Shown here in pieces: positions 6,164 to 64,000 of a stretch of DNA of 64,000 nt. The position numbers and the translations under genes were made by a program. This DNA is from Naegleria gruberi. Lineage: Eukaryota. Position 1 is the stretch's first letter; each line of letters begins with the position of its first letter. Location of the stretch: assembly GCA_000004985.1 (NCBI GenBank), contig GG738883.1, one strand, 5' to 3'. The notes under the pieces are model-generated. The model did no database searches and had not been told where the DNA came from. It saw nothing but the letters and a program-made list of their open reading frames with translations.

Positions 6164-7861
6164 ATGGCTTCCACTGCACTCCGTGTTGTTTATAACAATT
6201 TGATTGAACATGTCAGAAAGTACAAGATTCTCCAATCGGTGAATGCTCTTGCTGATTGGGATGAGTTAGTCATGATGCCTCCAAAGGGTGCTGAATCAAG
6301 AGGATTGCAAAAGACTGTCTTGGCTTCTTTGACTCACGATTTGCAAACTTCTCCACTCATTGAAAAGTATCTTTCGGAATTGGTAACTACTCAAGATGAT
6401 CAAAAGATTGTAGTGAAGAATGATTCCGAATTTGATGAATATGAAATTTCCAATATTATTCTCATCCATAAGGAATTTATAAGAAATACTAAAATTACAA
6501 AGGAATTGGTTGAGAGAGCTTCTGAATTATCTAGTCGTGGATATCATCAATGGGTTGAAGCTAGAAAGAAAAGTGATTGGACCTTGTTCCAAGACACTCT
6601 CCAAGAATGGGTTAACATTCGTAAGGAAATGAGTTTGTTGATTGAACCAAATCAAAATATTGCTGATACTTTGCTTGACGAATATGATCCTGGAATGACA
6701 TGTGAACAAGTTGCTCAAGTTTTTGAAGATGTCAAGAAGGAATTGATTCCACTCATTCAAGCCATTAGAAAGAAGGTTGAAGAAAATCCAGAAAAATACA
6801 GTGATGCTTCCTTGCTTGCCAAGATTCAAGCTGGTGCAGATGAATTGTTTGATCAAAAGGAACCGTTCCCAGTTGAAAAGCAAACTGAACTCTCCAAGCA
6901 AGTAGCTCAAGAATTAGGTTTCGATTTTGAAATGGGTAGATTGGATGTCAGTGTTCACCCATTCAGTACTTCATTCTCAACCAATGATGTCAGAATTACT
7001 ACCAGATATAATACTAAGGAATTCGTTAATGGTTTGGGTATGTTTTTTTGATGAATTATTGAAATTTATTTACCACATCATTTGGATAATTTGATTATCA
7101 TCATATAATTTACATTATCTTATTCTTGAATAATTACAGCTGGTACTGTACACGAAACAGGACACTCACTCTATGAAGCTGGTCTCAATCCACTCTATGC
7201 CTATCAACCAGTTCAATCTGCTCTTGGTACTACCATCCACGAAAGTCAATCCTTGTTCTGGGAAAGACATGTTGGTTTGAGTAAGGGATTCTGGAGAAAG
7301 TGGTTGCCAGTTGCTGAAGAATTGTTCCCATACTTGAAGCAAAAGAAATTGAGCGTTGATGACATTTACAGATCTGCCAATACTGTCACCCTCAATAACT
7401 TTATCAGAATTGAAGCTGATGAATTGACCTATCCAATGCACGTAATTCTTAGATTTGAAATAGAAAAGGGATTATTGGATGGATCAATCAGTGTTGCTGA
7501 TGTTCCAAAAGTTTGGAATGCCAAAGTTAAGGAATATTTGGGACTTGATGTTCCAAATGATGCTAAGGGTGCTCTCCAAGATGTCCACTGGAGTTCAGGC
7601 GCTTTTGCCTATTTCCCAACATATCTTCTTGGTGCTATGGCCTCTGCTCAAATCTCTGCATCCATTCCAGATTTTGAAAAACACATTGAAGAAAATAACT
7701 ATGCCTTCTTGAAGAATTGGTTGAATGAAAACATCCACAAGAGAGGTACTGTTACATTGACCTCTAACAAGTTGCTTAAGGAAGCTACTGGTTCTGAATT
7801 GAATCCAAAGATCTTTGTTAACTATCTCAAGACTAAATACAGTGCTCTCTATGATCTTTAA
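6164..7861 (+). CDS. Metallocarboxypeptidase, peptidase family M32 (carboxypeptidase Taq-like); 2 exons (6164..7037, 7140..7861; intron 7038..7139)
   Basis: M32 N-terminal region (LADWDELVMMPPKGAESRGLQKTVLASLTHDL). The HEXXH zinc motif HETGHSLYE and the downstream IHESQSLFWE motif sit just after the splice junction (...NGL-A-GTVHETGH...). Distal conserved block DVHWSSGAFAYFPTYLLGAM. Confidence 0.8.
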
Positions 7862-12075: not shown

Positions 12076-13089
12076 ATGTCTGAAGAAGAAATACAACAAA
12101 TATCATCATCGGAGGAAAATATTACAACAGATGAAGAAGAAAAATCCTTGGAAGAATTAGAACAACAACTTGCTCAATTTAATGAACAATTACAACAATG
12201 TATTTTACTTTCCGAACAAGAACCAGAATCAACTGAATATTCATCACTGATTGAAGATTTACAAAATGCCATCAATTTGACAACGGAATTAATTAATATT
12301 AAATTATCGGAACAACAACAGACTCATAGTAATACAATTGTGGAATCTGCAGTACCATTATATCAAGAGGGAGATTATTGTTATGGTCTTTATGAAGGTT
12401 TATGGTATGTGGCTGTTGTTACTAAAATCATAGATAACACCAAAAAGCTTGCCGAGTCAAGCATCAAGAAACCTTCTTTTGAATATTTAGTTAGATATGT
12501 TGGATATGGAAATTCTGAATTTATTTCAAAAGAAAGATATACCATTAAGGATTATTCACACCCTCCAACTGAATATTTACAATCAGGATCTAAATGTCTT
12601 GCTGTCAATGCCAATGATCCTGATGGACTCTATGAAGATGCCGTTGTTGATAAATTGACAGAAAAAGAAACGGTTTGGGTCACATTTAAGGAGAGAGGAA
12701 TCATGCAAGAAGTTCCATTAAGACTGATAAGACTTGCCTCTGATCATTTCTATGATCCAAAATTCAAACCAAAGAAATTCAAAAAACCAGAAACCACAAG
12801 CAATACTACCACTGTTGCTTCTACTGCTGCTGCAACAGCCATCACCCAAGAAAAGAAGGAGCAAGCTGAAATTATTGCCAAAAAGAAAAAGAAGCAAGAA
12901 AAGAGACAAGCCAAACAAAAGGAAGAGGAAAAAAACATTAATGAAAGAAAACAAAGTTGGCAATCCTTCAAGAATAAGAACTCTGGTAATTACAAGAATA
13001 CTGGAAAGACATTACAATCCTCAGAAAAGACCTTCACTCCCGCCCAAAAGAAAACCAAACATTCACACCCAACTAGTTCTCAACAATAA
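12076..13089 (+). CDS. SPF30/SMNDC1-like Tudor-domain splicing factor
   Basis: N-terminal coiled coil (LEELEQQLAQFNEQLQQ). Tudor-like core YQEGDYCYGLYEGLWYVAVVTKI ... YLVRYVGYGNSEFISKERY. The K-rich C-terminal tail (KKKKKQEKRQAKQKEEEKNINERKQSWQSFKNKNSGNYKN) follows the SPF30 pattern. Confidence 0.55.
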   Translation: MSEEEIQQISSSEENITTDEEEKSLEELEQQLAQFNEQLQQCILLSEQEPESTEYSSLIEDLQNAINLTTELINIKLSEQQQTHSNTIVESAVPLYQEGDYCYGLYEGLWYVAVVTKIIDNTKKLAESSIKKPSFEYLVRYVGYGNSEFISKERYTIKDYSHPPTEYLQSGSKCLAVNANDPDGLYEDAVVDKLTEKETVWVTFKERGIMQEVPLRLIRLASDHFYDPKFKPKKFKKPETTSNTTTVASTAAATAITQEKKEQAEIIAKKKKKQEKRQAKQKEEEKNINERKQSWQSFKNKNSGNYKNTGKTLQSSEKTFTPAQKKTKHSHPTSSQQ

Positions 13090-13364
13090 ATTATTCATCA
13101 TCATCGCCTAAGAAGAAGTTTAAAACTGCATTAGAAAAATTGAAACTCTTCTCGTTAGCTAGCTCCCTAACTCATTCACACAACGATGTGATTGGAGAGT
13201 TGTGATTACTTGAAAAATTGAAGCGAAACGGTTTTGTAAGCATCTCCAAATCAGCAAAATATTTTAAAAATAAAAAATCAAATTTAAAAAAAAATCGAAC
13301 CAAGTGCTAGGCTGCCCTACATTTCTTCGAGAAAAATAAACTCCTAGATTTATACATCATCACC

Positions 13365-16109
13365 ATGCAAAACGAAGGTAAAGAACAACAAAAAGCCGGA
13401 GGTTTCTTCTCCTCACAAAACAAGAGAAGTGAAATCAACGAATGGAGATTGGGCTTGGGAAATGAAAAGGAATCCGTCAGAAAGGATACAGTCAAGAAGG
13501 TTATTGCTGCCATGACTGTCGGTAAAGACGTTTCCATGTTGTTCACTGATGTCATCAAGTGTGTTGCTACCAACAATATCGAACTTAAGAAGTTGGTCTA
13601 TCTTTATATTATGAATTATGCTAAGACTCAACCAGATTTGGCTATCATGGCTGTCAATCAATTCGAAAGAGACTCTAACCATCCAAATCCTTTGATCAGA
13701 GGTTTGGCTGTCAGAACTATGGGTTGTATCAGAGTTAACAAGATTGTCGAATATTTGGCTGAACCAATTAGAAAGACAATCAAGGATAAGGATCCATACG
13801 TCAGAAAGACAGCTGCTGTTGCCATTGCTAAATTGTTCGATATTAATGCTGAAATGGCTATTGAGCAAGGATTTGTTGAAGCTTTGGAAGAATTGTTGAC
13901 TGATGACAACCCTATGGTTGTTGCTAACGCTGTTAAAGCTTTGGATGAAATTTCATCAACATCAAGTGAAGTTATTCTTGATTTCACAGAAAAGACTGTC
14001 AAGACTCTCTTGGCTGCTTTGAACCAATGTACAGAATGGGGTCAAGTTTTTATTTTGGATGCTCTCTCAAATTATCAACCAAAATCTGATAAGGAAACTA
14101 CTGAAATTGCTGAAAGAGTTGCTCCACGTTTGCAACATGCCAACTCTGCTGTCGTCCTTTCTGCTGTCAGAGTTATTAACAAGATGATTGATTTGATTAG
14201 CAATGAAAATGAAAAGAATGAATTGATCCAAAAGATCTCTGCTCCTCTTGTCACATTGTTGAGTGGTAACCCAGAAATTCAATATGTTGCTTTGCGTAAT
14301 ATTGACTTGATTGTCCAAAGTAGACCAGGTATTCTTGCTAACAATATCAAGATGTTCTTCTGTAAATATAACGATCCTATTTATGTCAAGTTGGAAAAGT
14401 TGGATATTATGGTTAAATTGGCTTCTGAACGTAACGTTGATACTGTTTTGATGGAATTCAAGGAATATGCCACTGAAGTTGACGTTGAATTTGTCAGAAG
14501 AAGTGTCCGTGCTATTGGTAGATGTGCCATTAAGCTTGAAAGAGCTGCCCAAAGATGTGTTGATGTTTTGCTTGATTTGATTCAAACTAAGGTTAACTAT
14601 GTCGTCCAAGAAGCTATCATTGTCATTAAGGATATTTTCAGAAGATATCCAAACAAGTATGAAGGTATTATTGGTAAGCTCTGTGAAAACCTCGATACTT
14701 TGGATGAACCAGAAGCTAAGGCTTCTATGATTTGGATTATCGGTGAATATTCCAACAAGATTGAAAATGCTGACGAATTGTTGCAAATCTTTATTGATAC
14801 TTTCCACGATGAAACTTCTCTTGTTCAATTGCAAGCCCTTACTGCTGTCATGAAGCTCTTCTTGAGAAGACCAAACGACACTAGAGATTTGATCAAGAAG
14901 GTTCTCCATTTGTCTACTGAAGAATCTGATAACCCAGATTTGCGTGACAGAGGTTACATTTATTGGCGTTTGCTCAATGAAGACCCAGAAGCTGCTAAGG
15001 CTGTCGTCTTGTCTGAAAAGCCAGTCATTAGAGATGACTCTACCAACATTCCAAAGACCTTGTTGAACGAATTGGTCAAGCATATTGGTACTTTGTCATC
15101 AGTCTATCATAAGCCTCCAGAATTGTTCGTTGCTGGTTACAAGAAGAAGAAGAGTGAATCTGGTGAAGATAAGGAAGTTGAAGATTACCTCAGAGAACAA
15201 CAACACCAAGATGCTGCTGACAGAACTACCACCCAAGATATTCTTGGTTTGGATGACGTTTTGGGAATGGGTACTGGTGCTCCAGCTCAAGATTCTGGTG
15301 ATCTTGATTTGGATGATGTTTTGGGTGTTGGTTCATCTCAACCTCAATTACAATTCTCTGCATCAACATCTGCCAATGCCAACGTTACTTCTCTCGTTCG
15401 TCCAGCTCCACAAAAGAAGTTGTTGCTCACTGCTGATAAGAGCAAGGGTCTCCAAATTTATGGTGCCATCAATAGAAATGCCAGAGGTGGACTCGAATTC
15501 TTGGTCACTTTTGAAAATCTTTCACAACAACCAATCACTGGTTATGCTTGTAAATTCAACACAAACACTTTCGGTTTCGTCCCAGGACAAGTTCAAGCTA
15601 ATGGTATTATGCCTGGTCAAAAGACTGATGGTATTGTTCCAATCCTCCCTGGTAACAATGAATCTGATAAGGTTTCTCCACTTATCCAAGTTGCCATCAA
15701 GACTGATTTGGGTGTTGCTTACTTTGCTGATAGCATTCCATTCAGTGCCTTGTTCATTGAAAATGGTTCTTGTGATAGAGATACTTACCTCACTCTCTTC
15801 CAAAGCATTCCAGATGAAACTGAAAGCACTACTGATGCTCCAAACGCTTCTGCTGGTAATGCTAGCGCTCTCATTTCTAGATTGCAAGCTCACAACATTT
15901 TCTTCGTTGCTGACCATCAAGATGCTGGTTTGACCAACTATTACTTCTCTGCCAAATTCAACTATGGTACTGAAGAAGTTATTGCTCTCTTGGAAATTGT
16001 TGTTAGTGCCAACTCACCACAATGCAAGATTAATACCAGATGTGCTGAAACTCAATTCATCCCATTCATTGAACAAGATGTTGCCAGAATTGTTTCCCTC
16101 ACTTTCTAA
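13365..16109 (+). CDS. AP-1/AP-2 adaptor complex beta subunit (beta-adaptin), single exon, 914 aa
   Basis: Near-invariant trunk motifs VKKVIAAMTVGKDVSMLF, LKKLVYLYIMNYAKTQPDLAIMAVN, NPLIRGLAVRTMGCIRV and DPYVRKTAAVAIAKL. A hinge and an appendage domain follow. Confidence 0.9.
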   Translation: MQNEGKEQQKAGGFFSSQNKRSEINEWRLGLGNEKESVRKDTVKKVIAAMTVGKDVSMLFTDVIKCVATNNIELKKLVYLYIMNYAKTQPDLAIMAVNQFERDSNHPNPLIRGLAVRTMGCIRVNKIVEYLAEPIRKTIKDKDPYVRKTAAVAIAKLFDINAEMAIEQGFVEALEELLTDDNPMVVANAVKALDEISSTSSEVILDFTEKTVKTLLAALNQCTEWGQVFILDALSNYQPKSDKETTEIAERVAPRLQHANSAVVLSAVRVINKMIDLISNENEKNELIQKISAPLVTLLSGNPEIQYVALRNIDLIVQSRPGILANNIKMFFCKYNDPIYVKLEKLDIMVKLASERNVDTVLMEFKEYATEVDVEFVRRSVRAIGRCAIKLERAAQRCVDVLLDLIQTKVNYVVQEAIIVIKDIFRRYPNKYEGIIGKLCENLDTLDEPEAKASMIWIIGEYSNKIENADELLQIFIDTFHDETSLVQLQALTAVMKLFLRRPNDTRDLIKKVLHLSTEESDNPDLRDRGYIYWRLLNEDPEAAKAVVLSEKPVIRDDSTNIPKTLLNELVKHIGTLSSVYHKPPELFVAGYKKKKSESGEDKEVEDYLREQQHQDAADRTTTQDILGLDDVLGMGTGAPAQDSGDLDLDDVLGVGSSQPQLQFSASTSANANVTSLVRPAPQKKLLLTADKSKGLQIYGAINRNARGGLEFLVTFENLSQQPITGYACKFNTNTFGFVPGQVQANGIMPGQKTDGIVPILPGNNESDKVSPLIQVAIKTDLGVAYFADSIPFSALFIENGSCDRDTYLTLFQSIPDETESTTDAPNASAGNASALISRLQAHNIFFVADHQDAGLTNYYFSAKFNYGTEEVIALLEIVVSANSPQCKINTRCAETQFIPFIEQDVARIVSLTF

Positions 16110-16283
16110 ATAAATTAAACATTTATTCTCTGAAAACAATTGCCTCAATACTATTCTTTTGTAAACTAAATTTCAATACGAGCAGTCTACTATTACAGTA
16201 CTGAATATTCAACGTATTTCCCTCCAATAGGCCACTTAAAGCGACAAGAAAAAAATCAACCCAACAGACATCCTTTTTTCATC

Positions 16284-18200
16284 ATGTCTTCGTCGATAAA
16301 CCATGATGAGAGCCAATCATTACTCTCCTCACCGCCTCCTCCCCAAACACAACAAGAAGATGATGACCAAGAATTCGACTTGCATCCAATAGAGAAGATT
16401 AAAAAACGTTCTTCCGGAACCATTTCTACAATCTTTTCCATCGTCAATACTATGGTTGTAAGTTTTTCATCATCCGAATTGTTCTTCAATACTAATTATC
16501 TATTTTCTAATTTCTTCTAATTTTCTAATGAATTAAAATTGATATCTATTTAAATAGGGTTCAACCATTCTATCACTTGCTTGGGGATTTACTCAAAGGT
16601 TTGTTTTCTTCTTTAATTTATTATTGAATATTTTATTGAATATATTTAATTATTATTATTATTCTAATTAATTGCAACAAATAGTGGTTTATACTTGGGT
16701 ATAATAGTATTTATTCTCGTCGGATTTATTAGTTATTACACTTGTAATTTGGTTGTTAAACATTCATTATTTAAAGTGAGATATGATGCCAGTAGTGAAG
16801 AAAGCAATACTAATACTGAATCAATTAATAGTGAAAGTCCAAATTATAATTCAATAGGAGGAGAATCAAAGACTCAATCATTCAAGATTGGAAAAGTTTC
16901 ATATACTAAAAAAACAAAGAGGCAAATCAAATCAATTTTTGATATTAAGGATTTTTCACAAGTTTGTGTTGAACATTTAGGAAAGTGGAGTGAAATTTTG
17001 TGTATTCTTACAAGTATTGTAATTTTGGTTGGAGCTTCAATTGCCTATCACATATTTATGAAAGATTGTCTTGTTAGTATTATTGATGGTATTGCAAATA
17101 TTGAATATGATCAATCAGTTATTTATCCATGGGAAAATAATGGTCCTCCATGGTATTGGAATGGAATTTTTGCATCATTGATTATTGTTGTGGTTTTATA
17201 TCCAATTACATTGTTTAAGAATTTGAATTTCCTTGTCAAGTTTAACTCATTTGGTATTTTCTTTGTGTTATTCTTGCTGGTTTTTATTATTTATGCATCA
17301 ATTGAAGCTTTGGTTTCACCTTTTGAAATGTCAGCTAATGTTGCAAGTGTGTCAAGTTTGACCATTTCAGCATTGGGATTATTTGGAAGTAATTCAGCTA
17401 CTCCTCCTGCTTCATCTTCACAGGATTCTTATAATATTGCTGATGATGTTATTAGAAAAGGAGACGAAGTTCTTGTCAATCACCTTAAATTATTCGATAT
17501 TCACTTTAGTCACCTTTTGGCAATTTTGTCTTTGAGTTTCTTTATTCACAACGTTATTGGACCAATTTTGAAAAACCAAAAGTCTTTGAAACATACCCAA
17601 AGAGATACAGGTGTAGCTTTCATTGTTGCTGGTATGATTTATGCTGTTCCTGGAATTTTGGGAGCTTTTGCGTATGTTTTTTTTAAATTTATTGGATTTT
17701 TATTGACCTATTATATCACAAGTTTCCGTTTTGCCTCAATTGATCAAAACTTTTTGAATCAATTCTCATCTAAGAGTATTTATGCTAATATTTCTCGTGG
17801 TGCAGTTTTGTTCCAATTAATGTCAATTTATCCTCTCTTGTTGAGTGTTATTAGAGTTCAATTTTTCAGTTTTGTGTACAGAAATAATCCAAACAAGGAG
17901 AAGCAACAATATCCTGGAATTATTCAAGTTGGCGCTTTGAACTTTTTTGTTTGTTTGATTACCACAGCAATGGCTGCTTTTTATCCAATGGTTGGTACTG
18001 TTTTGAGATTTACAGGTGCCATTTGTGGTTTAATTTACATGTACTTGTTACCTGTTTCAATTCACTTGGTTGTGCAATACAAGAAGAAGCAACTCACCAT
18101 TCTCTCAGTTCTATTCCATGTAGTATTGGTGCTATTTGGTTTATCAATTTTGGTATTACAATTTATTGATTTTGATCAATTCACACAGAAAGGCAATTAA
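16284..18200 (+). CDS. Amino-acid transporter, Aa_trans family (AVT/SLC38-like); 3 exons (16284..16457, 16558..16598, 16685..18200)
   Basis: GTAAGT and GTTTGT donors. The junctions rebuild the family N-terminal motif SSGTISTIFSIVNTMV|GSTILSLAWGFTQ-S-GLYLGIIVFILVGFISYYTC. About 10 predicted TM segments follow. Confidence 0.75.
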
Positions 18201-49899: not shown

Positions 49900-52800
49900 T
49901 TATGAATAAACTTTTAGTTTGCCTGTATCAGTAGAAACAAGCAGTAATTTGTGAAGAGGTAAATATTTAACGTCAGTGTAGTTTCCATTATTGGAATCGC
50001 TTGAAATATTGTTAAATGCTTGCCCTTCACAATATAAAACCTCTCTATTGTCTGAATCGATTGGAATTTCTCTCTTCTTTTTAGAAAGCTTTCTTTGTTT
50101 GTTCTTGAAGTCGTTCGAGGATTTAGAGTTCAATCTGTCAATTACATTTCTTGTAGAAACAAAACTGGAAGATTTACAGTAGAGAATTCTATCAGGTTGC
50201 AATGCAAATAATTGATCACATTCTGGTCTACTATAAAAATCGAACGAAATGATTGGAGCATTCGAAACTAAATCTTGATTGGTATTGTTGGAAACCTGGA
50301 ATGCCTTGATACACTTGGATGGTACAGAGTTTCTTGTATCCCAAACACGAATTAAGTCATTCTTATAGTCAGCTGCATCTTCTACTGGTCCTGTAATTGT
50401 GGAGGGGCTATTATCAAATGAAACAGTCTTACGGCAGCATGTGATAAAGTGTCCAGGTTTGGTTCCATCGTATGGCAATATTTTAGTAAGCTCTCCATTT
50501 TCGTGTGAACAGAATGAATCCAAAATCAATCCACTATGTTGTTCCATTAAAAATATCACGCCATTAGATAGTCCAATAGTTAAAAAGTTATCTCTTGGAT
50601 GACACTTGGAAATGCATTTGATGTTATGTTCTCCAATCACAGCAGAAGAGGTTGATGACATCATGTTTGGTACATAATTTGATGATTGGGATGTGAATAA
50701 CTTCCACTCAAAGGCACAAGACTTGGAAGGTTGTCTTAGATCATAAAATTGCACATTAGGAACAGACGAATAACTACTAGCCACAAGAATGTTAGGATTA
50801 TTTGTCAATGTTTCAAAAGTAATGAAATTCATAGTACCATTCAATTCTTGATTAATAGATGGAGATCCTGCACCAACAGTATACAAATATTTAGTTGTCT
50901 CAACATCAAATAAGTGAATATTTCCTCCACTATCCTTACACAGAAACTTGTTATCTGAAATGAACTTTACCTTGTCAACTTGAGATCTAAATAATTGCTT
51001 GTTAGTAGTTCCAGTATTTTGATAGCACAAATAGGTGCTCTCCATAGAAGAAGATTCCAAATTCCACAAACGTACAACAGGATTTGAGTGATGTCGCAAT
51101 AAACCTCCACCAGTTAATATAATTCTCTCATCTGATGGACAAACATCAATACATCTAAGTGATAAGTCATTAAATTTCAAATCTGAAAGCTCATACTCCA
51201 AAATTCCCTTAAATTTAACATCAGAAGTTTCTCTATCAAAACTATTGAATGCAAATGATTTTTCAAATATTTTTCCACTTGATAGTTGGTTATGAATGTA
51301 CCAAGAATTCTTTTCTGAGGTAACCTTTTTTGCTTTGGAGTATTGAATTTTAGGCTCCTTTGACTTGAGCTCATCTGCATCATTCTCTGAAAAATCAACA
51401 GTATCTTTTGTAAGACTGTCTTCGAGCATCTTACTATTCAATACAGCCTCTCTCATTGTAGAATTTCCAAAAACGCAACAGAGCTCTCTATACAAGGTGC
51501 AACCCATCTTGAAATGTCTATTATTTTTGAATCCACAATTTTCATCGTCATTACTCTCCTTGGTAGATTCATCCTCGACGGGACTATCATTGGTCGAAAT
51601 ATCCAAATTCTTATCATCAGATGCTGTAGAATCTCCACGTTTGAATCTCTCAAAGAATGATCGAATACCCTTTTTCTTTGTAACCTCATTATTTGTAGAA
51701 TTAGCTTGAATGGTCTGGGCCTGAATCGCTTCTTCATCAACTAAATCGCTGGCTAATGGTTGGCTATTTACTATAGGATTCTTGGAAAGATTTGCAAAAG
51801 ATGGTGCCACAGCAAGTTGTTGTGAAAAGTATCCATCCAAGTAAACGGCAGAGCACAAGATTTTTCTAAATGTAGATTTAGAGTTTTGGAATATTTGAAT
51901 TCTAACTTTAAGGTCACAAATATGGAAGAGTCTACACAAAAAGTGAGTAATTCTCTCAAAAATGTCCAAAATGTAAACAAATTGATTATTGGAATCATCA
52001 TTTTGAATAGCTAAATTATAGGTTGCCTCCATAATATTATTAATCAAGACTTGATTTGTTTGTAAAATATTATTCACAACAAGAGTTTGATTTGTGGTTC
52101 TTTCGAGAATATTCTCTAACAAGTCAATAATATTAGTTGCATTCCTCTTTAAATTTTCAAGATTTGTTATAGAACTAGAGGTTAGATCGTATGTCTTGAT
52201 TTCTTGTAAAATGATAGAAAAGAATTTAGATGCATAGTAACTAACAATTGTTCCATATCCCAAATTGGAGCTCAAATTATTCAATAGTAAAAAGATACTC
52301 TCATCGAATTGATAATGTCTAATCTTTTTTCTCAGTTTGAATAGTAATGGATCCAAAATGTATTGTATCGAAACAATAATTCCAAAATCGTTACATAATT
52401 TACACAGTGTAGCACATATCTTTTTGGAAATTTCTGGAAACTTGACACAATTAGTGAATAATCCTTCAATAAAGAATGGTAATAATTGTTCTAAGAATAA
52501 ACGCTTTTGATCCTTAGTTGTTGGATTAGTGATACCCTCAGAGTATGTGGTTGATGATGTTTGAGAAGCCTTACTATAAGGTTTGTGTGTAACATCAGAC
52601 AATATTACATTATAAATTAATGAAGAAAATGAATATGAATACAAGTTGAGAGGTAGTAACAACAAGTCTGATCTTTCTGGAATGGTATTGTTTGGTGATG
52701 AAGATTCATTATCTGAGGAAGATGTGCTATTTAAAATGGACTCTACTCTTTCATTTTCCATATACAATTGATAGAGTCTCAATTTAAGTATCTTTTTGGC

Positions 52801-55479
52801 CGAGTCACACTCTTTGAATTTGGAAAGGAATTTCTCTCTCGAATATCTTACCATTCCTCTCAAAATTTCAATACCATAAGTCCATGGTTGGATGTGAACA
52901 AAATGATTTGGTGAATTTTTTTCCATCTTTTTCACAAAGAACATGTGGAGAATGTGAGGAAGAACTAAATCGAGAGCATCAGGTGGAAGAGCCATAATAC
53001 TCTCTTGGAATTCTTGTGAATTATTTGGTGGTTTGATTTGTCTCAATACAAAATTATATCTTTCCAAATGACTCTGAAAGAGGTATAAATTTGAGAGAAC
53101 CCAATGACAATACTTGAAATATTCTGGAAAATATTTTTTGGATTGGTTAATAAAGAGTGCCTTCTTTCCTTTTGAAAGATTGATATCAATTAACTTTTCA
53201 ACAATGGAACGAGCAGGTTGACTGATCTTTTTCAATGCAGGTACTTCTGGTTGATGGTTCAACATTCCAGTCTCCCTAATATACTTTTCAAGAGACCTCG
53301 TATTAAATAATGGCTCAAAAGTATAGAGAGAGGCTAGCAAACATCCAACAGCAAACATGTCATCATTATAAAGCTCGCCTTTGGATTGAACTCGAGAACG
53401 ATTAATCTTTTCAATGAATGGTACAACATGATAGGCAGAGCTGGTAAAGTACTTGCTACTGAATTTGACAGAATTTTCATACAAGTGCATTCTCTCCATA
53501 ATAGAATTTGATGTGGAATATCTAGGGGGGTGTGGTTCGAAGAATAATTGAACAAATCCAAAACGTGAAGGATACAAGTCGTTATTTTCCTTTCTCAACA
53601 TGACATTTTTAGCTTCAATGGCATGGTGTCCACTAAGCTTGTATCCAAAAATCAAATCAATCCAATGATGAATATTCTGACTCACATAGTCACTCTCCAG
53701 GGCAGCTTTATGCTTTTGAATAAATTCTTCAGGTGTAGAAGCCCACGGCGGCAATACTAAATCAGTCATGTCTGTATGAATGGAAGTGAACATGTTCGGA
53801 TCAGTGAAAAATTCTGGAATGCATTCATCTGGAGTCCACTGATAGAGACGAACAATGGAATTTGGATATTCTTTTGGTTCATAGTTTTGTCTGACAAATT
53901 TCCTCAATGCACTAATAGAAACTCTTCTTGCCTTGTAGATAAAGTAGGTAATTTCAGAAAGTGGCTCTGTAACGTGATGAGGATTATCTGGTGATTGATA
54001 GGTAAAATCCAACATTTCATCTCCCTTATTGAGTCTGAATTTAGTTTTGGTTAAATCTCTCCATTCAACACGTGAGTTTGGATCGGTTGGGTCACTCTCA
54101 AAATCAATAATCCATGGCAATACAGGATGATACTGTTGATCACCAAGTCTCCTCCCAGCAAGAGCATTAAGTTTCATCAAGTAGTCAAAATTTGAAATTT
54201 TACCCTCCTGCCATAAGAGAACTAGATCTTTGGTTCTATTCTCGGAAATGTTCTGTGGTGACAATAGGGTACTATTATTTCCAGCTGTACCAGTATTGGA
54301 TGTTTTTGAGGGTGATTTAAATTCTGCCATTGGTGTTTGTAAAACGTGATGATGATGATCAGAGATGTGTTCTGGAGTATAGAGTATATCCTGTCCAATA
54401 ATTGAAATCCACAACATTTCATTGATTAGAATATTATTGGGTATTAATTTTCCATGAGCAATATTATTCTTGTGACAATGTGAAACTGCCTGTAATAATT
54501 GATAGAATAAAAATCTTCTACGAATGTCATCTAAATTAATTGAATAAAAAGTTAATGAAATAATGAAACAATTATTAAAAAAAAACAATATAAAAACAAA
54601 CCTGTTTCAAGAAGAACCTTATTGAATTGAATCAATTCTTCCCAAGTATAATTGTACATTTCCAAAACAATAAACCAAGCATTTTTACTTTCATAAACAT
54701 CGTATAATAATGGTATATTAGCGTGCTATAAATAATAGTATTTCAATAATTATCATTTCCAAATGAATAAATAATTGATAATAAACAAATTTTAATAATG
54801 TTGATAAGTTAAATATTTAAAAATAATTATAACATACCTTTGGAATAAAAGGACCGTCAAATAATATAAAAGTTTCATCCAAATCCCCATGTGAAGGATT
54901 ATAAAAAGTATAATCATCCAAAATTAATTGATTTAAATGATAAATTTGTGATAATGAATGATGTATGGCCTTTCTAATTGAATGATTAGATTTTCCATCT
55001 CCCATTTCAAATTGTTTCGGAATGACTCGTACCACTACATTTACTTCATCGGGTAATAATGAAAGTGGAATACTATTATTTGAAATGATATTATGATGAT
55101 TAGAATTGTTATTATTGTTACTATTATTAACATTGTTATTATCCAAATTATTATTATTCAAATTATTCACATTATTTTCTTCATGTAATTGATCCTGTTG
55201 ATCTTGTTGATTCATTGTTGGAGATATTGATGATGAAATTGATGGTGATGAATTTAATTCATCTTGTTGTGATAAATTTTCATCATCTGTTAACACATGA
55301 TTATCAAAAGTAGGCCTCTTTTTATAAATCTTGGATCGTTTACTATTATACATTTTGCAACAAGCATAGGAACATTTTCTCGTATATTCGGGACTCAACA
55401 TGTACTGATACTCGATGAGAGTCGGCGAGAGATCCTGTTCAATATATTCTCTCACTTGACTCGCATTTAAATTTCCCAT
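49900..55479 (-). CDS. WDR81: WDR81 ortholog (N-terminal pseudokinase-like region, BEACH domain, C-terminal WD40 repeats), about 1798 aa; 3 exons (55479..54838, 54725..54602, 54530..49900)
   Basis: The BEACH domain WQEGKISNFDYLMKLNALAGRRLGDQQYHPVLPWIIDF...FRLNKGDEMLDFTY...ITYFIYKARR...YQWTPDECIPEFFTDPNMFTSIH...HHWIDLIFGYKL aligns closely with human WDR81 ([38 protein letters not shown]...). C-terminal WD40 repeats are present (IRVWDTRNS...). Exon 1 (track ORF 54817..55479) joins through GTATGT and GTTTGT introns of 112 and 71 nt. Confidence 0.8.
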
Positions 55480-56344: not shown

Positions 56345-58858
56345 ATGGTCAAATTCAGTATTGATGAAATCCGTAATATTATGGACAAGCAACCACAAAT
56401 CCGTAATATGTCTGTCATTGCTCACGTCGATCACGGTAAATCCACCTTGACTGACTCCTTGGTTGCTGCTGCCGGTATTATTGCTCAAGCTAATGCTGGT
56501 CAACAACGTTTCATGGATACCAGAGATGACGAACAAGATAGATGTATCACCATTAAGTCTACTTCTATCTCCCTCTACTATAAGAAGCCAGCTGAAGATG
56601 GTACTGAAACTGAATATTTGATTAACTTGATCGATTGTCCAGGTCACGTTGACTTTTCATCTGAAGTTACTGCTGCTTTGAGAGTTACTGACGGTGCTTT
56701 GGTCGTCGTTGATGCCGTTTCTGGTGTCTGTGTCCAAACTGAAACTGTCTTGAGACAAGCTTTGCAAGAAAGAATTAGACCTGTCCTCATGATGAACAAG
56801 TTGGACAGAGCTTTCCTCGAACTCCAATTGCAACCTGAAGATGCTTATACCAACTTTAACAAGGCTATTGAATCTGTTAACGTTGTCATTTCCACTTATG
56901 ATGATGGTGGTTTCGGTGATCCACAAGTTTACCCAGAAAAGGGTACCGTTGCTTTCGGTTCTGGTCTCCATTGTTGGGGTTTCACTTTGAAGAGATTCGC
57001 CAAGATGTACGCCAAGAAATTCGGTGTTGCTGAAGAAAAGTTGATGAAGAAATTCTGGGGTGATAACTTCTTTGATGCTGCTAACAAGAAATGGGTTAAG
57101 GACTCTCAAGGTGGTAAATTGGTCAGAGGTTTCTGTCAATTCGTCTTGGATCCTATTTACAAGGTTTTCCACTCTTGTATCAATGATGATAAGCCTCTCC
57201 TCGAAAAGGTCTTGCCAGTTTTGGGTATTACATTGTCTGCTGATGAAAAACAACAAAAGGATAAGAAGTTGATGAAGTGTGTTATGGCTAAATGGTTGCC
57301 AGCTGCTGAAGCTCTCTTGGAAATGATTGTCACTCACTTGCCTTCACCAAAGGTTGCTCAAGGTTACAGATATGAACATTTGTACAACGGTCCACTCGAT
57401 GATAAGTATTGTCAAGCTGTTAAGAATTGTGATCCTAATGGTCCATTGATGATGTACGTCTCTAAGATGGTTCCTACTAACGATAAGGGTAGATTCTATG
57501 CTTTCGGTAGAGTTTTCGCTGGTAAGGTTAGAACTGGTCAAAAGGCTAGACTTATGGGTCCTAACTTTGAACATGGTAAGAATACTGACTTGTTCGATGA
57601 TAAGACTATCCAAAGAACTGTCGTTATGATGGGTCGTTATACTGAATCTGTTGATGATATTCCTTGTGGTAACGTTGCTGGTTTGGTCGGTGTTGATCAA
57701 TTCTTGATCAAGACTGGTACTATCACTGATTCTGATTGTAAGGATGCTTGTCCATTCAGAGATATGAAGTACTCTGTTTCCCCTGTCGTCAGAGTTGCCG
57801 TCGAACCAAAGAATCAAGCTGATTTGCCAAAGGTTATTGAAGGTATGAAGAGATTGGCTAAGTCTGATCCTTTGGTCGTCTGTACTATCAATGAAGAATC
57901 TGGTGAAAAGATTATTGCTGGTGCCGGTGAATTGCACTTGGAAATTTGTTTGAAGGATTTGAGAGACGATTTCTGTGGTGGTATTGAATTGAAGATTTCC
58001 GACCCAGTCGTTGCTTTCAGAGAAACTGTTTCTGAAGCTTCCCCATGTGATACTTTGACTAAGTCTCCAAACAAGCACAACAGATTGTACATGAATGCTG
58101 AACCACTCCCAGAAGAAATGCAAGATGATATTGAACAAGGTAAAATTACTGCTAACGATGAAGCCAAGAAGAGAGCTAAGTACTTGCAAGACCAATACGG
58201 TTGGGATCAAGACCAAGCCAGAAAGATTTGGTCATTCGGTCCAGACCAAACTGGTCCAAACTTGATGGTTGACGTTACCAAGGCTGTCCAATATTTGAAC
58301 GAAATTAAGGACTCTGTCAACTCTGGTTTCCAAATTGCTGCTAAGGAAGGTCCACTCTGTAATGAAACATGTCGTGGTGTTAGATACAACTTGACTGATG
58401 TTACTTTGCACACTGATGCTATCCACAGAGGTGCTGGTCAAATCTTGCACACTGCCAGAAGAGGTTGTCAAGCTGCTCACTGTAACTCTGCTCCAAGAAT
58501 TTTGGAACCAATCTTTTTGGTTGAAATCCAATGTCCTGACTCTGTTTTGGGTTCAGTCTACTCTGTCATGAACAGAAGAAGAGGTACAATTGATCAAGCT
58601 ATCCAAAGACCAGGTACTCCAATGTTCAACGTTAAGGCTTACCTCCCTGTCTTGGAATCATTCAACTTCTCCACCTTCTTGAGATCTGAAACTGGTGGTG
58701 AAGCTTTCCCACAATGCGTTTTCCACCATTGGCAAATTGTTGGTGGTGATCCTTGGGATAAGACTTCAAAGATCAGAGAATTGGTTGTTGATACTCGTAA
58801 GCGTAAGGGTTTGAAGGAAGAAATTCCAACCGTCGAAGAACTCTCCGACAAGTTGTAA
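56345..58858 (+). CDS. EFT2: Translation elongation factor 2 (eEF2), single exon, 837 aa
   Basis: G-domain motifs [17 protein letters not shown] and NKLD. The diphthamide-region is [18 protein letters not shown]. Codon usage is highly biased (GGT, GCT, AAG, TTC, TTG). Confidence 0.95.
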
Positions 58859-59763: not shown

Positions 59764-62480
59764 ATGTCGACAACAAGTCACTTCAGTGATGAAAGTCTGC
59801 ATGATGATAATTTATTTGCAGAACATCCGATGGGAATTTATGATCAAGAAGAAAATCTTTACAAACACCAGCAACAAATCTATCGACCACTGAAGAAACT
59901 TTCCTCCACACAATTATCCACAGTTTACCTTTGTGAGAATTCTAATGGAAAACTTGTTGTATTAAAAGTTGCATCCTATGAAAATGAACAAGATACCATC
60001 GAGTGGAATCCGAAATTAGTTGAAGAATCGAATAGACTACATACACAATATCTACTTTATATTCTGGATGTTTTTACAGTGGAAAAAACCAATGGGAAAT
60101 ATTTGTGTGTAGTTTCCGAATATTGTGAGAATGGGAGTTTAGCAACAAGTATTGATGCTTTGCGTAAATCAATGAATGTTTCGTTATTCCTTCAGATATT
60201 ATTTCAAATGTTGCGTGCTTTGGATGCTCTTCATTTTGGTCTGTTTGTTCATGCTGATGTGAAGTTGGATAATATATTTGTGAGGAAATTTGATAGAAAT
60301 AGAGTATTTGTGGTATTGGGAGATTTGGGTTTAAGTTCCAAGATGGATTTTACTGAGGAGGAATTGTCTCAAAATTGTATTGATGTAGATAATGAACTGA
60401 CAACAGTCACTACAGGAGAAATTGGAACCTTTTCGTATAGAGATCCAATAATAATGAAACGAAGAAAAGTGTATTTCAAAAGTGATATTTGGAGTTTAGG
60501 TATGTTTCTCTTTTTTCTATTTGAGAATTGAACCTAATTTCTAAAGGAATAACTTTATTGAAATTGATATCAAGAGACGAAATGCCCAATTTTGAATCGA
60601 CAACAACAGAAGAAAGACTCAACACCATTCGACAAATATTTTCCCATTTTGAGACTGAAAAAAAAGAATGGGAAGTTTGTCAGAATATTATTGAACGAAT
60701 GTTAGTGGAAGATGTTACAGAGAGAGCAACTATTTCAGAAATTCGTTTAATGATTTATTCTACAACTATTGATGACTCATCATTTGAAAACAATTACCAA
60801 CATTTAAGGGAGGAATTCAAATACAACAGATCTGTAATTATTAGCTGTCTAAATGCAAAGGGAAGCATTTTACAACATGTACCTGATGCATTTCATTTCA
60901 ACAGAAAAATTGTAATGGAAGCAATTCACAATAATCCAAGCGCTTACCAATACATCAAAGGATACTTGAAATACCAACCATATATTGTAAACGCAGTTAT
61001 AGAAAGAGATCCATCTGTTCAAGTACCAGTTCATTTGGTAAAAGCTCCTTCACATTACGTTGCTAATAGCATTATCATTGAGCTTTCGGAACAAGAGAAG
61101 AATGACAAAGGGTTATTTATGGAAATTCTTGAAAGAGATGGTACGAGTTTAAAAGATGCCTCTTGGGAATTGAAAAATGATAGAGATTGTGTTATAAAAA
61201 GCGTAACACAGAGAGGAATTTCATTACAGTTTGCCTCAACTGATTTACGAAATGATGGAGAAATTGTGAGAATAGCTATTTCACAAAATGGAATGGCCTT
61301 AGAGTACGCTCATCCATTATTAAGACAAAGAGAAGATATTGTGATGAAAGCTGTTTCACAAAATGGATTGGCACTTCAATTTGCTTCAATAGAAATGAGA
61401 AATAATCAAAGAGTTGTGGAAAGGGCTGTATTGTCTGAATATACAGGCCAATTATTGTTTCTGATTGGTGAGGAATTGAGAAGTGACGTATCGTTCATGG
61501 TAAGATTGCTTAGTCTTAATCAGTTATTGTTTTTTCAATATTTGTTTTCTTTTGGAGAAGAATCTTTCAGAAATCTATGTGATGAGTATCAACATGAGGA
61601 TCAGTTTATTTGGTGTCTCAATGGATTGTTCGGCATTTTCGAAGATAACATTAATGGAGCACTGAAATATTTTCAACTTGCTGCAGAAAAAGACAATGCG
61701 TCTGCTGAACACTTCCTCGGTATAATGTACCATAAAGGACAAGTTGTGGAACAGGATTTTTGTAAGGCTTTTGAATGGTTTGGTAAATCAGCTGAAAAAG
61801 GATATCCAGAAGCTCAATTCTCGATTGGGTTAATGTATTATCACGGAGAATATGTTTCAAAAAATAAGGAAAGAGAATTTTATTGGATTTATAGAGCTGC
61901 TGAGCAAGGACATGTTAAGGCTGAAAGTTCTATTGCTTGTCTTTATTATGCTCAGGAAGAATATTCCAAATCATTTGAGTGGTATTTGAAAGCAGCTGAA
62001 AAAGGAGATTCAGATTCTCAATTTGAAATAGGTTCACTGTATCACAAAGGATTGGGAATACCAAAAGATTTTACAAATGCCTTTAGTTGGTATTCGAAAG
62101 CTGCAGAACATGGTCATTCGAAAGCTCAAAATAATATTGGAGTATTGTATCAAACAGGACAAGGTATTCCACAAAATTATTCCAAAGCACTTGAATGGTT
62201 CATGAAATCAGCTGAGAATAATGATACAGATGCCATGAATTTTATTGGACTGATATATCAAGAAGGCCAAGGAGTTCCACAAGACAACATCACAGCATTC
62301 GAATGGTTTCTAAAAGCAGCCGAATGTGGCAATGTACAATCTCAAATACTTGTCGCTACCATGTATCATCATGGTATTGGAGTGGAGCAAAACTTGTATG
62401 ATGCACTGAAATGGTATGAAAAAGCTGCAGGAGGAACTCAGAATAATTCAAAAGCTGATTCCAAAGAAATTGAGAATTGA
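59764..62480 (+). CDS. Degenerate protein-kinase (likely pseudokinase) domain fused to DUF4116 repeats and C-terminal Sel1 (TPR-like) repeats, about 890 aa; 2 exons (59764..60499, 60547..62480)
   Basis: The kinase-like region has a degenerate Gly loop, VLKVA in place of the VAIK lysine motif, HAD in place of HRD (LFVHADVKLDNIFV), and DLG in place of DFG. A GTATGT..AG 47-nt intron (phase 1) joins to DUF4116 repeats (DREIVLKAV/QNGxALQFAS pattern). About 8 Sel1 repeats follow (AQxxLGxxYxxGxGVxQDxxxAxxWxxKAAExG). Confidence 0.7.
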
Positions 62481-62929
62481 GAATTGATTACAACAAATAC
62501 TTCATTCAGAATAATTATATTTTAATTGTTCAAAGATTTATTGAATATAATTATCACAGTAGTTGGTTTTTACTCTTGTAGTATGGCGTGTAATTATCAA
62601 TCAGAATTATTTCCTCAATTACATTGTTGCAACTCCACCACACCCAATGCTCTTCCTCCAATGTTGTTGATCCATTTGTCAATTACAGAACATGCACCCT
62701 TATTTTCTCGAGAAAACTTCAATAATTTAAGGATTCTTTGCCAATGTTGTGTTAGAAGTACCACCTGCTGGAGCACATGATAACTGAAATTAAGTAATGG
62801 ATCATGTTAAGAGAAATTATTGATTATCAAACATAAACTTGAAATATTCAAATTCCAATAACAGTTTATTAAAAATCTTGCAATTAAATATCTGTGAAAT
62901 AAATATTGCTGACAGGACCTAATATTGGC

Positions 62930-62937
62930 TGACGTCA
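62930..62937 (+). promoter_or_regulatory. Perfect CRE/ATF palindrome TGACGTCA about 90 bp upstream of the GT13 gene start
   Basis: ggcTGACGTCAaaagtcacc. Only one occurrence was noticed in the window. Confidence 0.2.
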
Positions 62938-63026: not shown

Positions 63027-64000
63027 ATGATATCAAAATTTAGTATTCGAAATATAGCCATATTTATCTGTGGTGCATTATTATATGGTTTAATAACTGT
63101 ATTTTTATATCGTGCTGTATTTAATTCTAATAGTATTAGTGGAAATAAACTTTCTAATAGTGAAACTTCATCAGGTAGTGGAAAACATCATCATACAAAT
63201 AATAATCAACATAAACAACAAGAACAAACAACAATTAATGAAATTAAAAATCCTTTCGAATACTTTTTACCCACCAAAGATTCTATTAAAATGATGTCAA
63301 TTCCGCACAAGGATTCACAACCAAGTCTTGAAGAAATGAAATCAACACAATCAAATCAATGTGGTTCAACAGTTGGTAATACAGTTCCTGGAAGAGGGAA
63401 GAGAAGTGAAAATTTTGATTGGCCAAATTTTTCACCATCAAGTTTTAATATTGAAACTGATTTTAGAAAGTGGAAGAATGAAAGTATTGAATATTGGAAG
63501 AAGGTTTCTAGTAATTTGAATGGAGATTTATTGAATGATGAAAAATTAAAGATGAATGAAATGGGATTAACTTTAAATTCTCATTTGAAACCTAAAGATG
63601 GACATTTACCTATTTGGTTGAGAGTATTTAAGAGAAGAACACCACTTGATATTTCACTAGCAGCCATTTGTAAGATTGATGATATTTCTGATACAATTTT
63701 ATATGTTACTGTTGATGGTGGTGATTTTGATCCAGTTTTTGAAGAATTGGAGAAGGTTACTTGCGTGAAAGTTAAAATTTATTTCCATCCAATTTTGAGT
63801 GATTTGAAAAATTTAGGTTTAGGTGAAAGAAATTTAGACAATTCACTCACTCTAAATTCACATTACGTTTATGGAATGTATCTACTCACTCAGAAACTTA
63901 ATTATCCCTATGTGATTACAATTGAAGATGATTTGGAAGCTAGTCCTGATTTTTACAGATATCACTACAGTTTATATCATTTAGTTTATGGAAAGAATGC
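63027..64000 (+). CDS. GT13-family N-acetylglucosaminyltransferase (GnT-I/MGAT1- or POMGNT1-like), type II membrane protein; 5' portion only, CDS runs off the window end
   Basis: Open frame from the ATG at 63027 to position 64000 with no stop (absent from the track because it is unterminated). N-terminal signal anchor IAIFICGALLYGLITVFLY. The catalytic block YPYVITIEDDLEASPDFYRYH matches the GT13 EDD motif (VVVEDDLEVAPDFFEYF). Confidence 0.55.
   Translation, partial: MISKFSIRNIAIFICGALLYGLITVFLYRAVFNSNSISGNKLSNSETSSGSGKHHHTNNNQHKQQEQTTINEIKNPFEYFLPTKDSIKMMSIPHKDSQPSLEEMKSTQSNQCGSTVGNTVPGRGKRSENFDWPNFSPSSFNIETDFRKWKNESIEYWKKVSSNLNGDLLNDEKLKMNEMGLTLNSHLKPKDGHLPIWLRVFKRRTPLDISLAAICKIDDISDTILYVTVDGGDFDPVFEELEKVTCVKVKIYFHPILSDLKNLGLGERNLDNSLTLNSHYVYGMYLLTQKLNYPYVITIEDDLEASPDFYRYHYSLYHLVYGKN

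What the first reader, a model, noticed from the sequence alone, without database searches (positions are those of the whole stretch)
63027..64000. GT13 (GnT-I/POMGNT1-like) N-acetylglucosaminyltransferase running off the window end
The unterminated ORF was missed by the ORF track. It has an N-terminal signal anchor and the GT13 hallmark ITIEDDLEASPDFYRYH. GnT-I initiates hybrid and complex N-glycans and is generally absent from fungi. Its presence, together with GT61, argues that this organism makes processed N- or O-linked glycans. A perfect CRE palindrome lies about 90 bp upstream.
Basis: partly seen in the sequence, partly recalled or inferred. Interest (0 to 1): 0.5.

Follow-up and report, generated by a model that had tools for sequence, protein, structure and literature searches.

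The report
Divergent GnT-I-like glycosyltransferase gene, Naegleria gruberi
The window ends inside a real gene of the amoeba Naegleria gruberi that encodes a membrane-anchored sugar-transferring enzyme, a distant relative of the animal and plant enzyme GnT-I; it is one of several copies of a small, unstudied protist branch of that enzyme group, so it is a reasonable but fairly ordinary find and does not show that the organism makes complex N-glycans.

Summary
An ATG at 63027 opens a frame of 324 codons that runs off the window. It has one N-terminal membrane anchor and the motif ITIEDDLEASPDFYRYH. The window is Naegleria gruberi NEG-M, not a fungus. The TGACGTCA palindrome 90 bp upstream is no more than chance (1 found, 0.54 expected).

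The protein is homologous to GnT-I, but only distantly.
- Pfam GNT-I scores 26.1 bits against a cut-off of 25.4, over 55 residues.
- hhalign of the family against canonical GnT-I gives 98.8% probability at 16% identity.
- Relatives form a small family: 74 hits among 1.84 billion representatives. The named members are Naegleria and Willaertia. Most score below the Pfam cut-off.
- The equivalents of the UDP and metal-binding residues are conserved. The GnT-I C-terminal domain is absent in paralogues.

Best reading: a secretory-pathway, metal-dependent, inverting GT-A transferase. It probably uses UDP-GlcNAc; the acceptor is unknown.

The last ~130 residues, including the catalytic-base motif, lie beyond the window and could not be recovered. 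Interest is modest.

The parts
63027..64000 (+). 5' part (324 codons, about 70%) of the coding sequence of a GnT-I-like glycosyltransferase. No intron in this stretch. It runs off the window end.
   Evidence: Open frame from an ATG that follows an in-frame TAA. It aligns without gaps to the full-length paralogues P0001 (460 aa), P0002 (454 aa) and P0003 (468 aa). dN/dS against the P0001 gene is 0.18 over aa 126-324.
63054..63110 (+). Single transmembrane signal anchor (aa 10-28), type II topology
   Evidence: Highest 19-residue Kyte-Doolittle mean is 2.37, and there is no other hydrophobic segment. Modelled as a helix with pLDDT 93-96. The paralogues have the same feature.
63132..63317 (+). 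Low-complexity, poorly conserved stem (aa 36-97)
   Evidence: pLDDT is below 50 over aa 36-83 and 85-97. The paralogues vary in sequence and length here. dN/dS is 0.70 over aa 1-125.
63348..63596 (+). Family-specific conserved helical module in front of the catalytic domain (aa 108-190). It includes the invariant C112, the WPxFSPS motif and ET143-144.
   Evidence: Invariant columns. Helices at aa 146-177 have pLDDT above 90. Not covered by the Pfam GNT-I hit or the hhalign match to canonical GnT-I.
63603..63998 (+). N-terminal half of the GT-A (nucleotide-sugar binding) catalytic domain, aa 193-324: beta1 'HLPIWLRVFKRR' through the helix after the EDD motif
63633..63635 (+). R203, aligned with the Arg of the GnT-I 'CDR/CNR' beta1 loop (rabbit R117; numbering from memory)
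   Evidence: Invariant in the 22-sequence family alignment. Aligned to the conserved R of canonical GnT-I.
63714..63716 (+). D230 of 'VTVDGG', aligned with the uracil-binding Asp of GnT-I 'SQDCG' (rabbit D144; numbering from memory)
   Evidence: Invariant in the family. Aligned.
63861..63863 (+). H279 of 'NSHYVYG', aligned with His of GnT-I 'ARHYRW' (rabbit H190; numbering from memory)
   Evidence: Invariant in the family. Aligned residue by residue to rabbit GnT-I.
63924..63932 (+). E300-D301-D302, the DxD-type metal and UDP-binding motif (GnT-I EDD, rabbit 211-213), inside ITIEDDLEASPDFYRYH (63915-63965)
   Evidence: D301 and D302 are invariant and E300 nearly invariant in the family. Aligned to the EDD of rabbit GnT-I.

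Best explanation
This is the first ~70% of an intronless Naegleria gruberi gene for a type II membrane protein. Its lumenal part is a GT-A fold, metal-dependent (EDD motif), inverting glycosyltransferase.

It belongs to a small, divergent family that is sister to, or a deep branch of, the beta-1,2-GlcNAc-transferase clade: GnT-I and POMGnT1 (GT13) and GnT-II (GT16). The named members of the family are heteroloboseans (Naegleria, Willaertia).

N. gruberi carries several paralogues, in two subfamilies. The window copy belongs to subfamily A.

The most likely mechanism is as follows. In the Golgi or ER lumen the enzyme binds UDP-GlcNAc through the conserved Arg, Asp, His and EDD-Mn2+ residues. 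It then transfers GlcNAc in beta linkage to a mannose-containing glycan.

- **Shown:** the ORF, the membrane anchor, homology to GnT-I, the conserved nucleotide and metal-binding residues, the fold of a paralogue, and purifying selection.
- **Inferred:** the donor sugar, the linkage, the compartment and the acceptor. The acceptor could be an N-glycan, an O-mannose glycan or something else.
- **Inferred from paralogues only:** that this copy continues into an intact C-terminal half.
For: **Organism.** Three window ORFs are identical to N. gruberi NEG-M proteins EFC41792, EFC41797 and EFC41809.

**ORF and anchor.**

**Homology to GnT-I.**
- Pfam GNT-I 26.1 bits, above the 25.4 cut-off.
- Rabbit GnT-I by phmmer, E 3.3e-5.
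- Family profile against PDB sequences: GnT-I 3.3e-9, POMGnT1 0.18, MGAT2 0.24.
- hhalign of the family against canonical GnT-I: 98.8% probability, E 7.7e-17, 223 columns.

**Fold.**
- AlphaFold2 model of paralogue P0002: pLDDT 87.4, pTM 0.83.
- Foldseek: GnT-I 5e-12, MGAT2 8e-11, POMGnT1 6e-8.

**Residues.** R203, D230, H279, D301 and D302 are invariant in the family and align to the GnT-I nucleotide and metal-binding residues. The closest paralogues have 'EEDYFPGWG' aligned to the GnT-I catalytic-base motif 'TDFFPGLGW', and 'PCSPRVR' aligned to 'RPEISR'.

**Selection.** dN/dS is 0.18 over aa 126-324 against the paralogous gene in L002.

**Family size and members.**
Against: - The C-terminal ~130 residues of this copy, which hold the catalytic-base motif, lie beyond the window. 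A truncated or frameshifted copy cannot be excluded.
- Donor and acceptor are inferred only from the three nearest solved enzymes, at 12-19% identity.
- The Asp aligned to the GnT-I catalytic base is not conserved across the whole family. Other members have P, E, V or K there, with a conserved Glu one residue earlier. The chemistry may therefore differ in detail.
- No expression or glycan data for Naegleria were found in the literature held.
Confidence: 0.6

Rival explanations
1. It is the functional GnT-I (EC 2.4.1.101) of Naegleria. It adds GlcNAc beta-1,2 to the alpha-1,3-mannose of Man5GlcNAc2 and so starts hybrid and complex N-glycans.
For: - GnT-I is the best sequence match among curated families and solved structures.
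- A source (UniRef) names paralogue P0002 alpha-1,3-mannosyl-glycoprotein 2-beta-N-acetylglucosaminyltransferase.
- The nucleotide and metal-binding residues are conserved.
Against: - Identity to canonical GnT-I is only 16-24%.
- The family profile reaches canonical animal GnT-I only at E of about 5e-6, although those proteins score 350-376 bits on Pfam GNT-I.
- Most family members score below the Pfam cut-off.
- The GnT-I C-terminal domain is absent in paralogues.
- Several paralogues in two subfamilies suggest varied acceptors.
- The source name is probably an automatic transfer from the Pfam hit.
- No evidence for complex N-glycans in Naegleria was found in the held literature.
Confidence: 0.2
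2. It is a transferase of the same fold with a different specificity: another UDP-sugar, or a non-mannose or non-protein acceptor. The family would then be a new glycosyltransferase family rather than GT13.
For: - Borderline or sub-threshold Pfam scores for both GNT-I and MGAT2.
- A family-specific N-terminal module and a Cys-containing insertion.
- No GnT-I C-terminal domain.
- The catalytic-base position varies within the family.
- The family is small and the named members are heteroloboseans.
Confidence: 0.15
3. This particular copy is a decaying or truncated paralogue (pseudogene) with no function.
For: - The C-terminal third is unseen.
- No identical protein was returned from the protein collection.
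- The organism has other paralogues that could cover the function.
Against: - 324 codons without a stop in AT-rich DNA.
- All family-invariant residues in the visible part are intact.
- dN/dS is 0.18 in the conserved part.
- The failure to return an identical protein is weak evidence, because the same tool failed to return P0001 and P0002 for a query cut out of them.
Confidence: 0.05

Closest known systems
GnT-I / MGAT1 (CAZy GT13, Pfam PF03071; rabbit structures 1FO8, 1FO9, 1FOA)
   Same: - Type II membrane topology.
- GT-A fold.
- EDD metal and UDP motif in the same context ('EDDLE.(A/S)PDF(F/Y)').
- Conserved Arg, Asp and His of the UDP pocket.
- In the closest paralogues, 'D(F/Y)FPG.G' and 'P..SR' motifs.
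- Best sequence match of any curated family.
   Different: - 16-24% identity.
- Pfam score at the cut-off, and only over 55 residues.
- No GnT-I C-terminal domain in full-length paralogues.
- An extra conserved N-terminal helical module and a Cys-containing insertion.
- Multi-copy family in Naegleria.
GnT-II / MGAT2 (CAZy GT16, Pfam PF05060; human structure 5VCM)
   Same: - Weak Pfam MGAT2 matches to the first beta-alpha-beta region in 17 of 41 relatives scanned.
   Different: - No MGAT2 match for the window fragment at E up to 10.
- The core heterolobosean relatives scanned one by one score 13-24 bits against a cut-off of 27.
- The family profile scores MGAT2 at only E 0.24, against 3e-9 for GnT-I.
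POMGnT1 (CAZy GT13; human structure 5GGF)
   Different: - The family profile scores it at only E 0.18.
- The region before the catalytic domain here is a short helical module with no match to any other Pfam domain.
Heterolobosean paralogues: N. gruberi P0002 (named GnT-I by UniRef), P0025 (EFC36603) and P0090 (EFC36292); N. fowleri FDP41_012856; N. lovaniensis C9374_006361; Willaertia magna ABK040_008206, ABK040_010317 and ABK040_000682
   Same: Same family and architecture. Subfamily A members are 70-74% identical to the window protein over aa 126-324.
   Different: - All are uncharacterised.
- The N. fowleri member sits next to EF2, as the window gene nearly does, but it falls in subfamily B (42% identity). 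Position is shared; orthology is not shown.

Membership tests
GT13 / Pfam GNT-I (PF03071) | Score at or above the curated Pfam gathering threshold (25.4 bits) | tested here: inconclusive
   The window fragment scores 26.1 bits over aa 266-320 only. Paralogue P0002 scores 29.3. P0001 scores 21.3, P0003 12.0, and other relatives 16-26 bits, mostly below the cut-off. Canonical GnT-I scores 350-376 bits.
GT13 / Pfam GNT-I (PF03071) | Homology across the whole GT-A catalytic domain, not just one motif | tested here: met
   hhalign of the family alignment against two canonical GnT-I: probability 98.8%, E 7.7e-17, 223 columns from beta1 to the P..SR motif, 16% identity.
GT13 / Pfam GNT-I (PF03071) | EDD (DxD-type) Mn2+/UDP-GlcNAc binding motif | tested here: met
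   E300-D301-D302 align to the rabbit GnT-I EDD. D301 and D302 are invariant in the family.
GT13 / Pfam GNT-I (PF03071) | UDP-pocket residues (rabbit R117, D144, H190; role and numbering from memory of the GnT-I structure paper) | tested here: met
   R203, D230 and H279 are invariant in the family and align with the conserved R, D and H of canonical GnT-I.
GT13 / Pfam GNT-I (PF03071) | Catalytic-base Asp in 'TDFFPGLGW' (rabbit D291; from memory) | not testable with these tools
   The region lies beyond position 64000. The closest paralogues P0001 and P0002 have 'EEDYFPGWG' with Asp aligned. Other family members have P, E, V or K there, with a conserved Glu one residue earlier.
GT13 / Pfam GNT-I (PF03071) | GnT-I C-terminal domain after the catalytic domain (Pfam profile positions ~313-434) | tested here: not met
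   Tested on full-length paralogues. They end about 50 residues after 'PCSPRVR', and their Pfam matches stop at profile position 312 or earlier. This could not be tested for the window copy itself.
GT13 / Pfam GNT-I (PF03071) | Fold closest to GnT-I/POMGnT1 among solved structures | tested here: inconclusive
   [not shown]
GT13 / Pfam GNT-I (PF03071) | Type II membrane (Golgi-type) topology | tested here: met
   Single hydrophobic segment at aa 10-28 after a short N-terminus. Conserved lumenal cysteines.
GT13 / Pfam GNT-I (PF03071) | UDP-GlcNAc:alpha-3-D-mannoside beta-1,2-GlcNAc transferase activity | not testable with these tools
   Needs an enzyme assay. No Naegleria data were found in the held literature.
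GT16 / Pfam MGAT2 (PF05060) | Score at or above the Pfam gathering threshold (27 bits) | tested here: not met
   No MGAT2 hit for the window fragment at E up to 10. The core heterolobosean relatives scanned one by one score 13-24 bits, over the first ~90 profile positions only. The family profile scores human MGAT2 at E 0.24.
POMGNT1 subgroup of GT13 | Sequence closeness to POMGnT1 and a recognisable extra domain before the catalytic domain | tested here: not met
   The family profile scores POMGnT1 at only E 0.18. Pfam finds no domain other than the GNT-I and MGAT2 matches. The 80-residue N-terminal module is family-specific.

The most novel reading that the evidence does not exclude
The family would be a distinct, uncharacterised glycosyltransferase family, sister to GT13 and GT16. 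Its named members are heteroloboseans, and there are a few unnamed eukaryotic relatives.

It would have its own N-terminal module and lack the GnT-I C-terminal domain. Its paralogues would build lineage-specific glycans with acceptor or linkage specificities not seen in GnT-I, GnT-II or POMGnT1.
Probability: 0.25. Interest if true: 0.5.

Novelty: new member of a known kind. Interest (0 to 1): 0.3.

Why it matters
Little is known about protein glycosylation in Naegleria, a genus that includes the brain-eating N. fowleri; no relevant paper turned up in the held library.

A multi-copy family of secretory-pathway GlcNAc-transferase-like enzymes suggests that these amoebae elaborate their glycans beyond oligomannose.

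The family could also help show how the GnT-I, GnT-II and POMGnT1 clade diversified early in eukaryotes.

In practice, automatic 'GnT-I' labels on these proteins should be treated as family-level hints, not as evidence for complex N-glycans.

Tried and rejected
**Extending the gene beyond 64000.**
- The look-up of encoding contigs has no N. gruberi genome record for EF2 or P0002.
- A degenerate DNA pattern for EDDLEASPDFYRYHY found nothing in the JGI metagenomes.
- A search with the C-terminal halves of the paralogues returned only N. lovaniensis P0028 and a JGI fragment. No N. gruberi C-terminal model came back.
- The C-terminal fragments P0028, P0034 and P0040 are not identical to the window gene.

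**CRE palindrome as a regulatory element.** Rejected as chance.

**Linkage with GT61.** Rejected: the two genes are 61 kb apart with many unrelated genes between them.

**Orthology with the EF2-adjacent N. fowleri gene.** Position is shared, but the tree puts it in the other subfamily.

**'Gene is unannotated'.** No identical protein was returned. The retrieval is heuristic: one search missed P0001 and P0002, and one search returned 4 of the 22 query members. I therefore do not claim this.

**AlphaFold database fold search.** Unavailable.

**Literature on Naegleria GnT-I or N-glycans.** Searches found nothing relevant.

Full report
**What is in the sequence.** The frame that starts with ATG at 63027 is preceded directly by an in-frame TAA. 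It stays open for 324 codons until the window ends. The ORF tool omits ORFs that run off an end, which explains why the ORF track missed it.

The product begins MISKFSIRN, followed by one hydrophobic segment at aa 10-28 with a mean Kyte-Doolittle value of 2.37. This is the only such segment. The motif ITIEDDLEASPDFYRYH is at aa 297-313 (nt 63915-63965).

The palindrome TGACGTCA is at 62930-62937, 90 bp upstream. One copy in 64 kb compares with 0.54 expected, and 40 of 100 shuffles have at least one, so it carries no weight. A GT61 ORF exists at 1561-2334, but it is 61 kb away with many unrelated genes in between.

**Where the window comes from.** Three window ORFs are identical in protein sequence to Naegleria gruberi NEG-M proteins: EFC41792, EFC41797 (AP-1 beta) and EFC41809 (EF2). 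All three lie on one 371,401-bp contig.

**Is it GT13?** By sequence the nearest curated family is Pfam GNT-I, but only just. The score is 26.1 bits against a cut-off of 25.4, and the match covers only aa 266-320 around the EDD motif. phmmer against solved structures gives rabbit GnT-I at E 3.3e-5 over the same region.

The word-index protein search returned three relatives:
- P0001, from an ENA assembly that also holds a contig 99.3% identical to window 12802-16583;
- P0002, an N. gruberi protein that UniRef names GnT-I;
- P0003, from Willaertia magna.

They are 454-468 aa long, so the window holds about 70% of the gene.

A full HMMER scan of 1.84 billion cluster representatives with the four-sequence profile found only 74 proteins at E <= 1e-3. 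The named ones are:
- N. gruberi EFC36603 and EFC36292;
- N. fowleri FDP41_012856;
- N. lovaniensis C9374_006361;
- three Willaertia proteins.

The rest are unnamed contigs. Canonical animal GnT-I proteins score 350-376 bits on Pfam GNT-I, yet they appear only at E of about 5e-6 in this scan.

Family members score 12-29 bits on Pfam GNT-I, mostly below the cut-off. Many also show 13-24 bits on the first ~90 positions of Pfam MGAT2.

Profile-profile comparison of the family with two canonical GnT-I sequences gives 98.8% probability (E 7.7e-17) over 223 columns at 16% identity. The match runs from the first beta strand to the P..SR motif. Against solved-structure sequences the family profile prefers GnT-I (3.3e-9) over POMGnT1 (0.18) and MGAT2 (0.24).

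**Structure.** An AlphaFold2 model of the full-length paralogue P0002, built with a 30-sequence alignment, is confident: pLDDT 87.4 and pTM 0.83.

| Search | MGAT2 | GnT-I | POMGnT1 | Next hit |
|---|---|---|---|---|
| Foldseek | 8e-11 | 5e-12 | 6e-8 | – |

The fold therefore places the family firmly in the clade of the three known UDP-GlcNAc:mannoside beta-1,2-GlcNAc transferases. It does not decide between GT13 and GT16.

**Residues.** In a 22-sequence family alignment the invariant positions within the window fragment are C112, P137, N184, R203, L207, D230, H254, H279, Y295, D301, D302 and D308. E300 is nearly invariant.

R203, D230, H279 and E300-D301-D302 align with the Arg, Asp, His and EDD of canonical GnT-I. 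From my memory of the rabbit GnT-I structure, these residues bind UDP and Mn2+.

In the C-terminal half, which is visible only in paralogues, 'EEDYFPGWG' of P0001 and P0002 aligns with the GnT-I catalytic-base motif 'TDFFPGLGW', and 'PCSPRVR' aligns with 'RPEISR'. Other family members replace that Asp with P, E, V or K but keep a Glu one residue earlier.

The paralogues end about 50 residues after this point. They therefore lack the GnT-I C-terminal domain. In its place the family has a conserved ~80-residue helical module before the catalytic domain (aa 108-190 here), and a Cys-containing insertion.

**Is it a live gene?**
- Against the paralogous gene on L002 (77% DNA identity to window 63420-63994), dN/dS is 0.18 over aa 126-324 and 0.70 over the anchor and stem.
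- All family-invariant residues in the visible part are intact.
- The C-terminal ~130 residues could not be recovered, so a truncated copy cannot be excluded.
- No identical protein was returned by the protein search. The same tool failed to return P0001 and P0002 for a query cut out of them, so I do not conclude that the gene is unannotated.

**Family structure and neighbourhood.** A neighbour-joining tree on 198 columns separates two subfamilies.
- Subfamily A: the window gene, P0001 and P0002 (70-74% identical to each other), three ENA sequences and Willaertia P0003.
- Subfamily B: N. gruberi EFC36603 and EFC36292, N. fowleri FDP41_012856, Willaertia P0019 and others.

In N. fowleri the family member follows EF2 directly, after a BEACH-kinase gene on the other strand. 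The window has the same order: BEACH-kinase 49900-54588, EF2 56345-58858, then the GT gene at 63027. The difference is an extra kinase/Sel1-repeat gene at 59764-62480. The N. fowleri gene is in subfamily B, however, at 42-44% identity. Position is shared, but orthology is not shown.

**Interpretation.** The best-supported reading is a secretory-pathway, metal-dependent, inverting GT-A transferase of a divergent GnT-I-like family. It probably uses UDP-GlcNAc on a mannose-containing acceptor.

Calling it 'the GnT-I' of Naegleria, and inferring hybrid or complex N-glycans from it, goes beyond the evidence. I found no paper in the held library on Naegleria GnT-I or N-glycan structures.

The find is a new member of a known kind. 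There is a modest chance that the family will turn out to deserve its own glycosyltransferase family.

Noticed in passing
window 1561-2334 (+), perhaps joined to the ORF at 600-1505: GT61 glycosyltransferase ORF (Pfam PF04577, 59 bits, E 7e-16).
   Followed up: partly
window 59764-62480 (+): A protein kinase domain ORF (59764-60531) is followed in another frame by a 650-aa ORF whose C-terminal part looks by eye like Sel1-type repeats; only the kinase ORF was scanned against Pfam. They are probably one gene with a short intron. It lies between EF2 and the GT gene. N. fowleri (L003) has no gene at that place.
   Followed up: partly
L003 10001-11968 (N. fowleri VFQX01000016.1, FDP41_012856): A member of the same GT family lies directly downstream of EF2 in N. 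fowleri, mirroring the window. By the tree it belongs to the other subfamily (42-44% identity). This could reflect an old tandem pair with differential loss, or coincidence.
   Followed up: partly
P0028 (N. lovaniensis C9374_006361, 188 aa): This gene model covers only the C-terminal half of a subfamily-A-like protein, starting at 'MHYSYGMY'. It is probably a truncated annotation.
   Followed up: no
P0023 (Willaertia magna ABK040_000682, 1114 aa): The family's GT region (aa ~707-983) is followed by a Peptidase_S8 stretch (aa 994-1081, E 3.5e-10). This is either a real fusion or two merged gene models.
   Followed up: no
L002 (ENA ERZ929261 contig k127_251148) and L001: The same ENA assembly holds a contig 99.3% identical to window 12802-16583 and a full-length paralogue (P0001) of the window gene. 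N. gruberi or a very close strain therefore probably has a third subfamily-A copy. The only named N. gruberi members returned were P0002 and two subfamily-B proteins (EFC36603, EFC36292), which differ from P0001.
   Followed up: partly
window 6164-7051 and 7253-7861 (+): An M32 carboxypeptidase (Pfam PF02074) is split over two ORFs that match profile positions 2-254 and 294-489. It is probably one gene with an intron.
   Followed up: no
window 62500-62800, both strands: The 550-bp spacer before the GT gene holds short Cys-containing ORFs on both strands, for example 62615-62776 on the minus strand (53 aa). No function was assigned. It could be a small unannotated gene or noise.
   Followed up: no
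tool behaviour: The word-index protein search did not return proteins that were part of, or contained, the query (P0001 and P0002; 18 of 22 members). A failure to return a sequence from that tool is weak evidence that the sequence is absent.
   Followed up: yes
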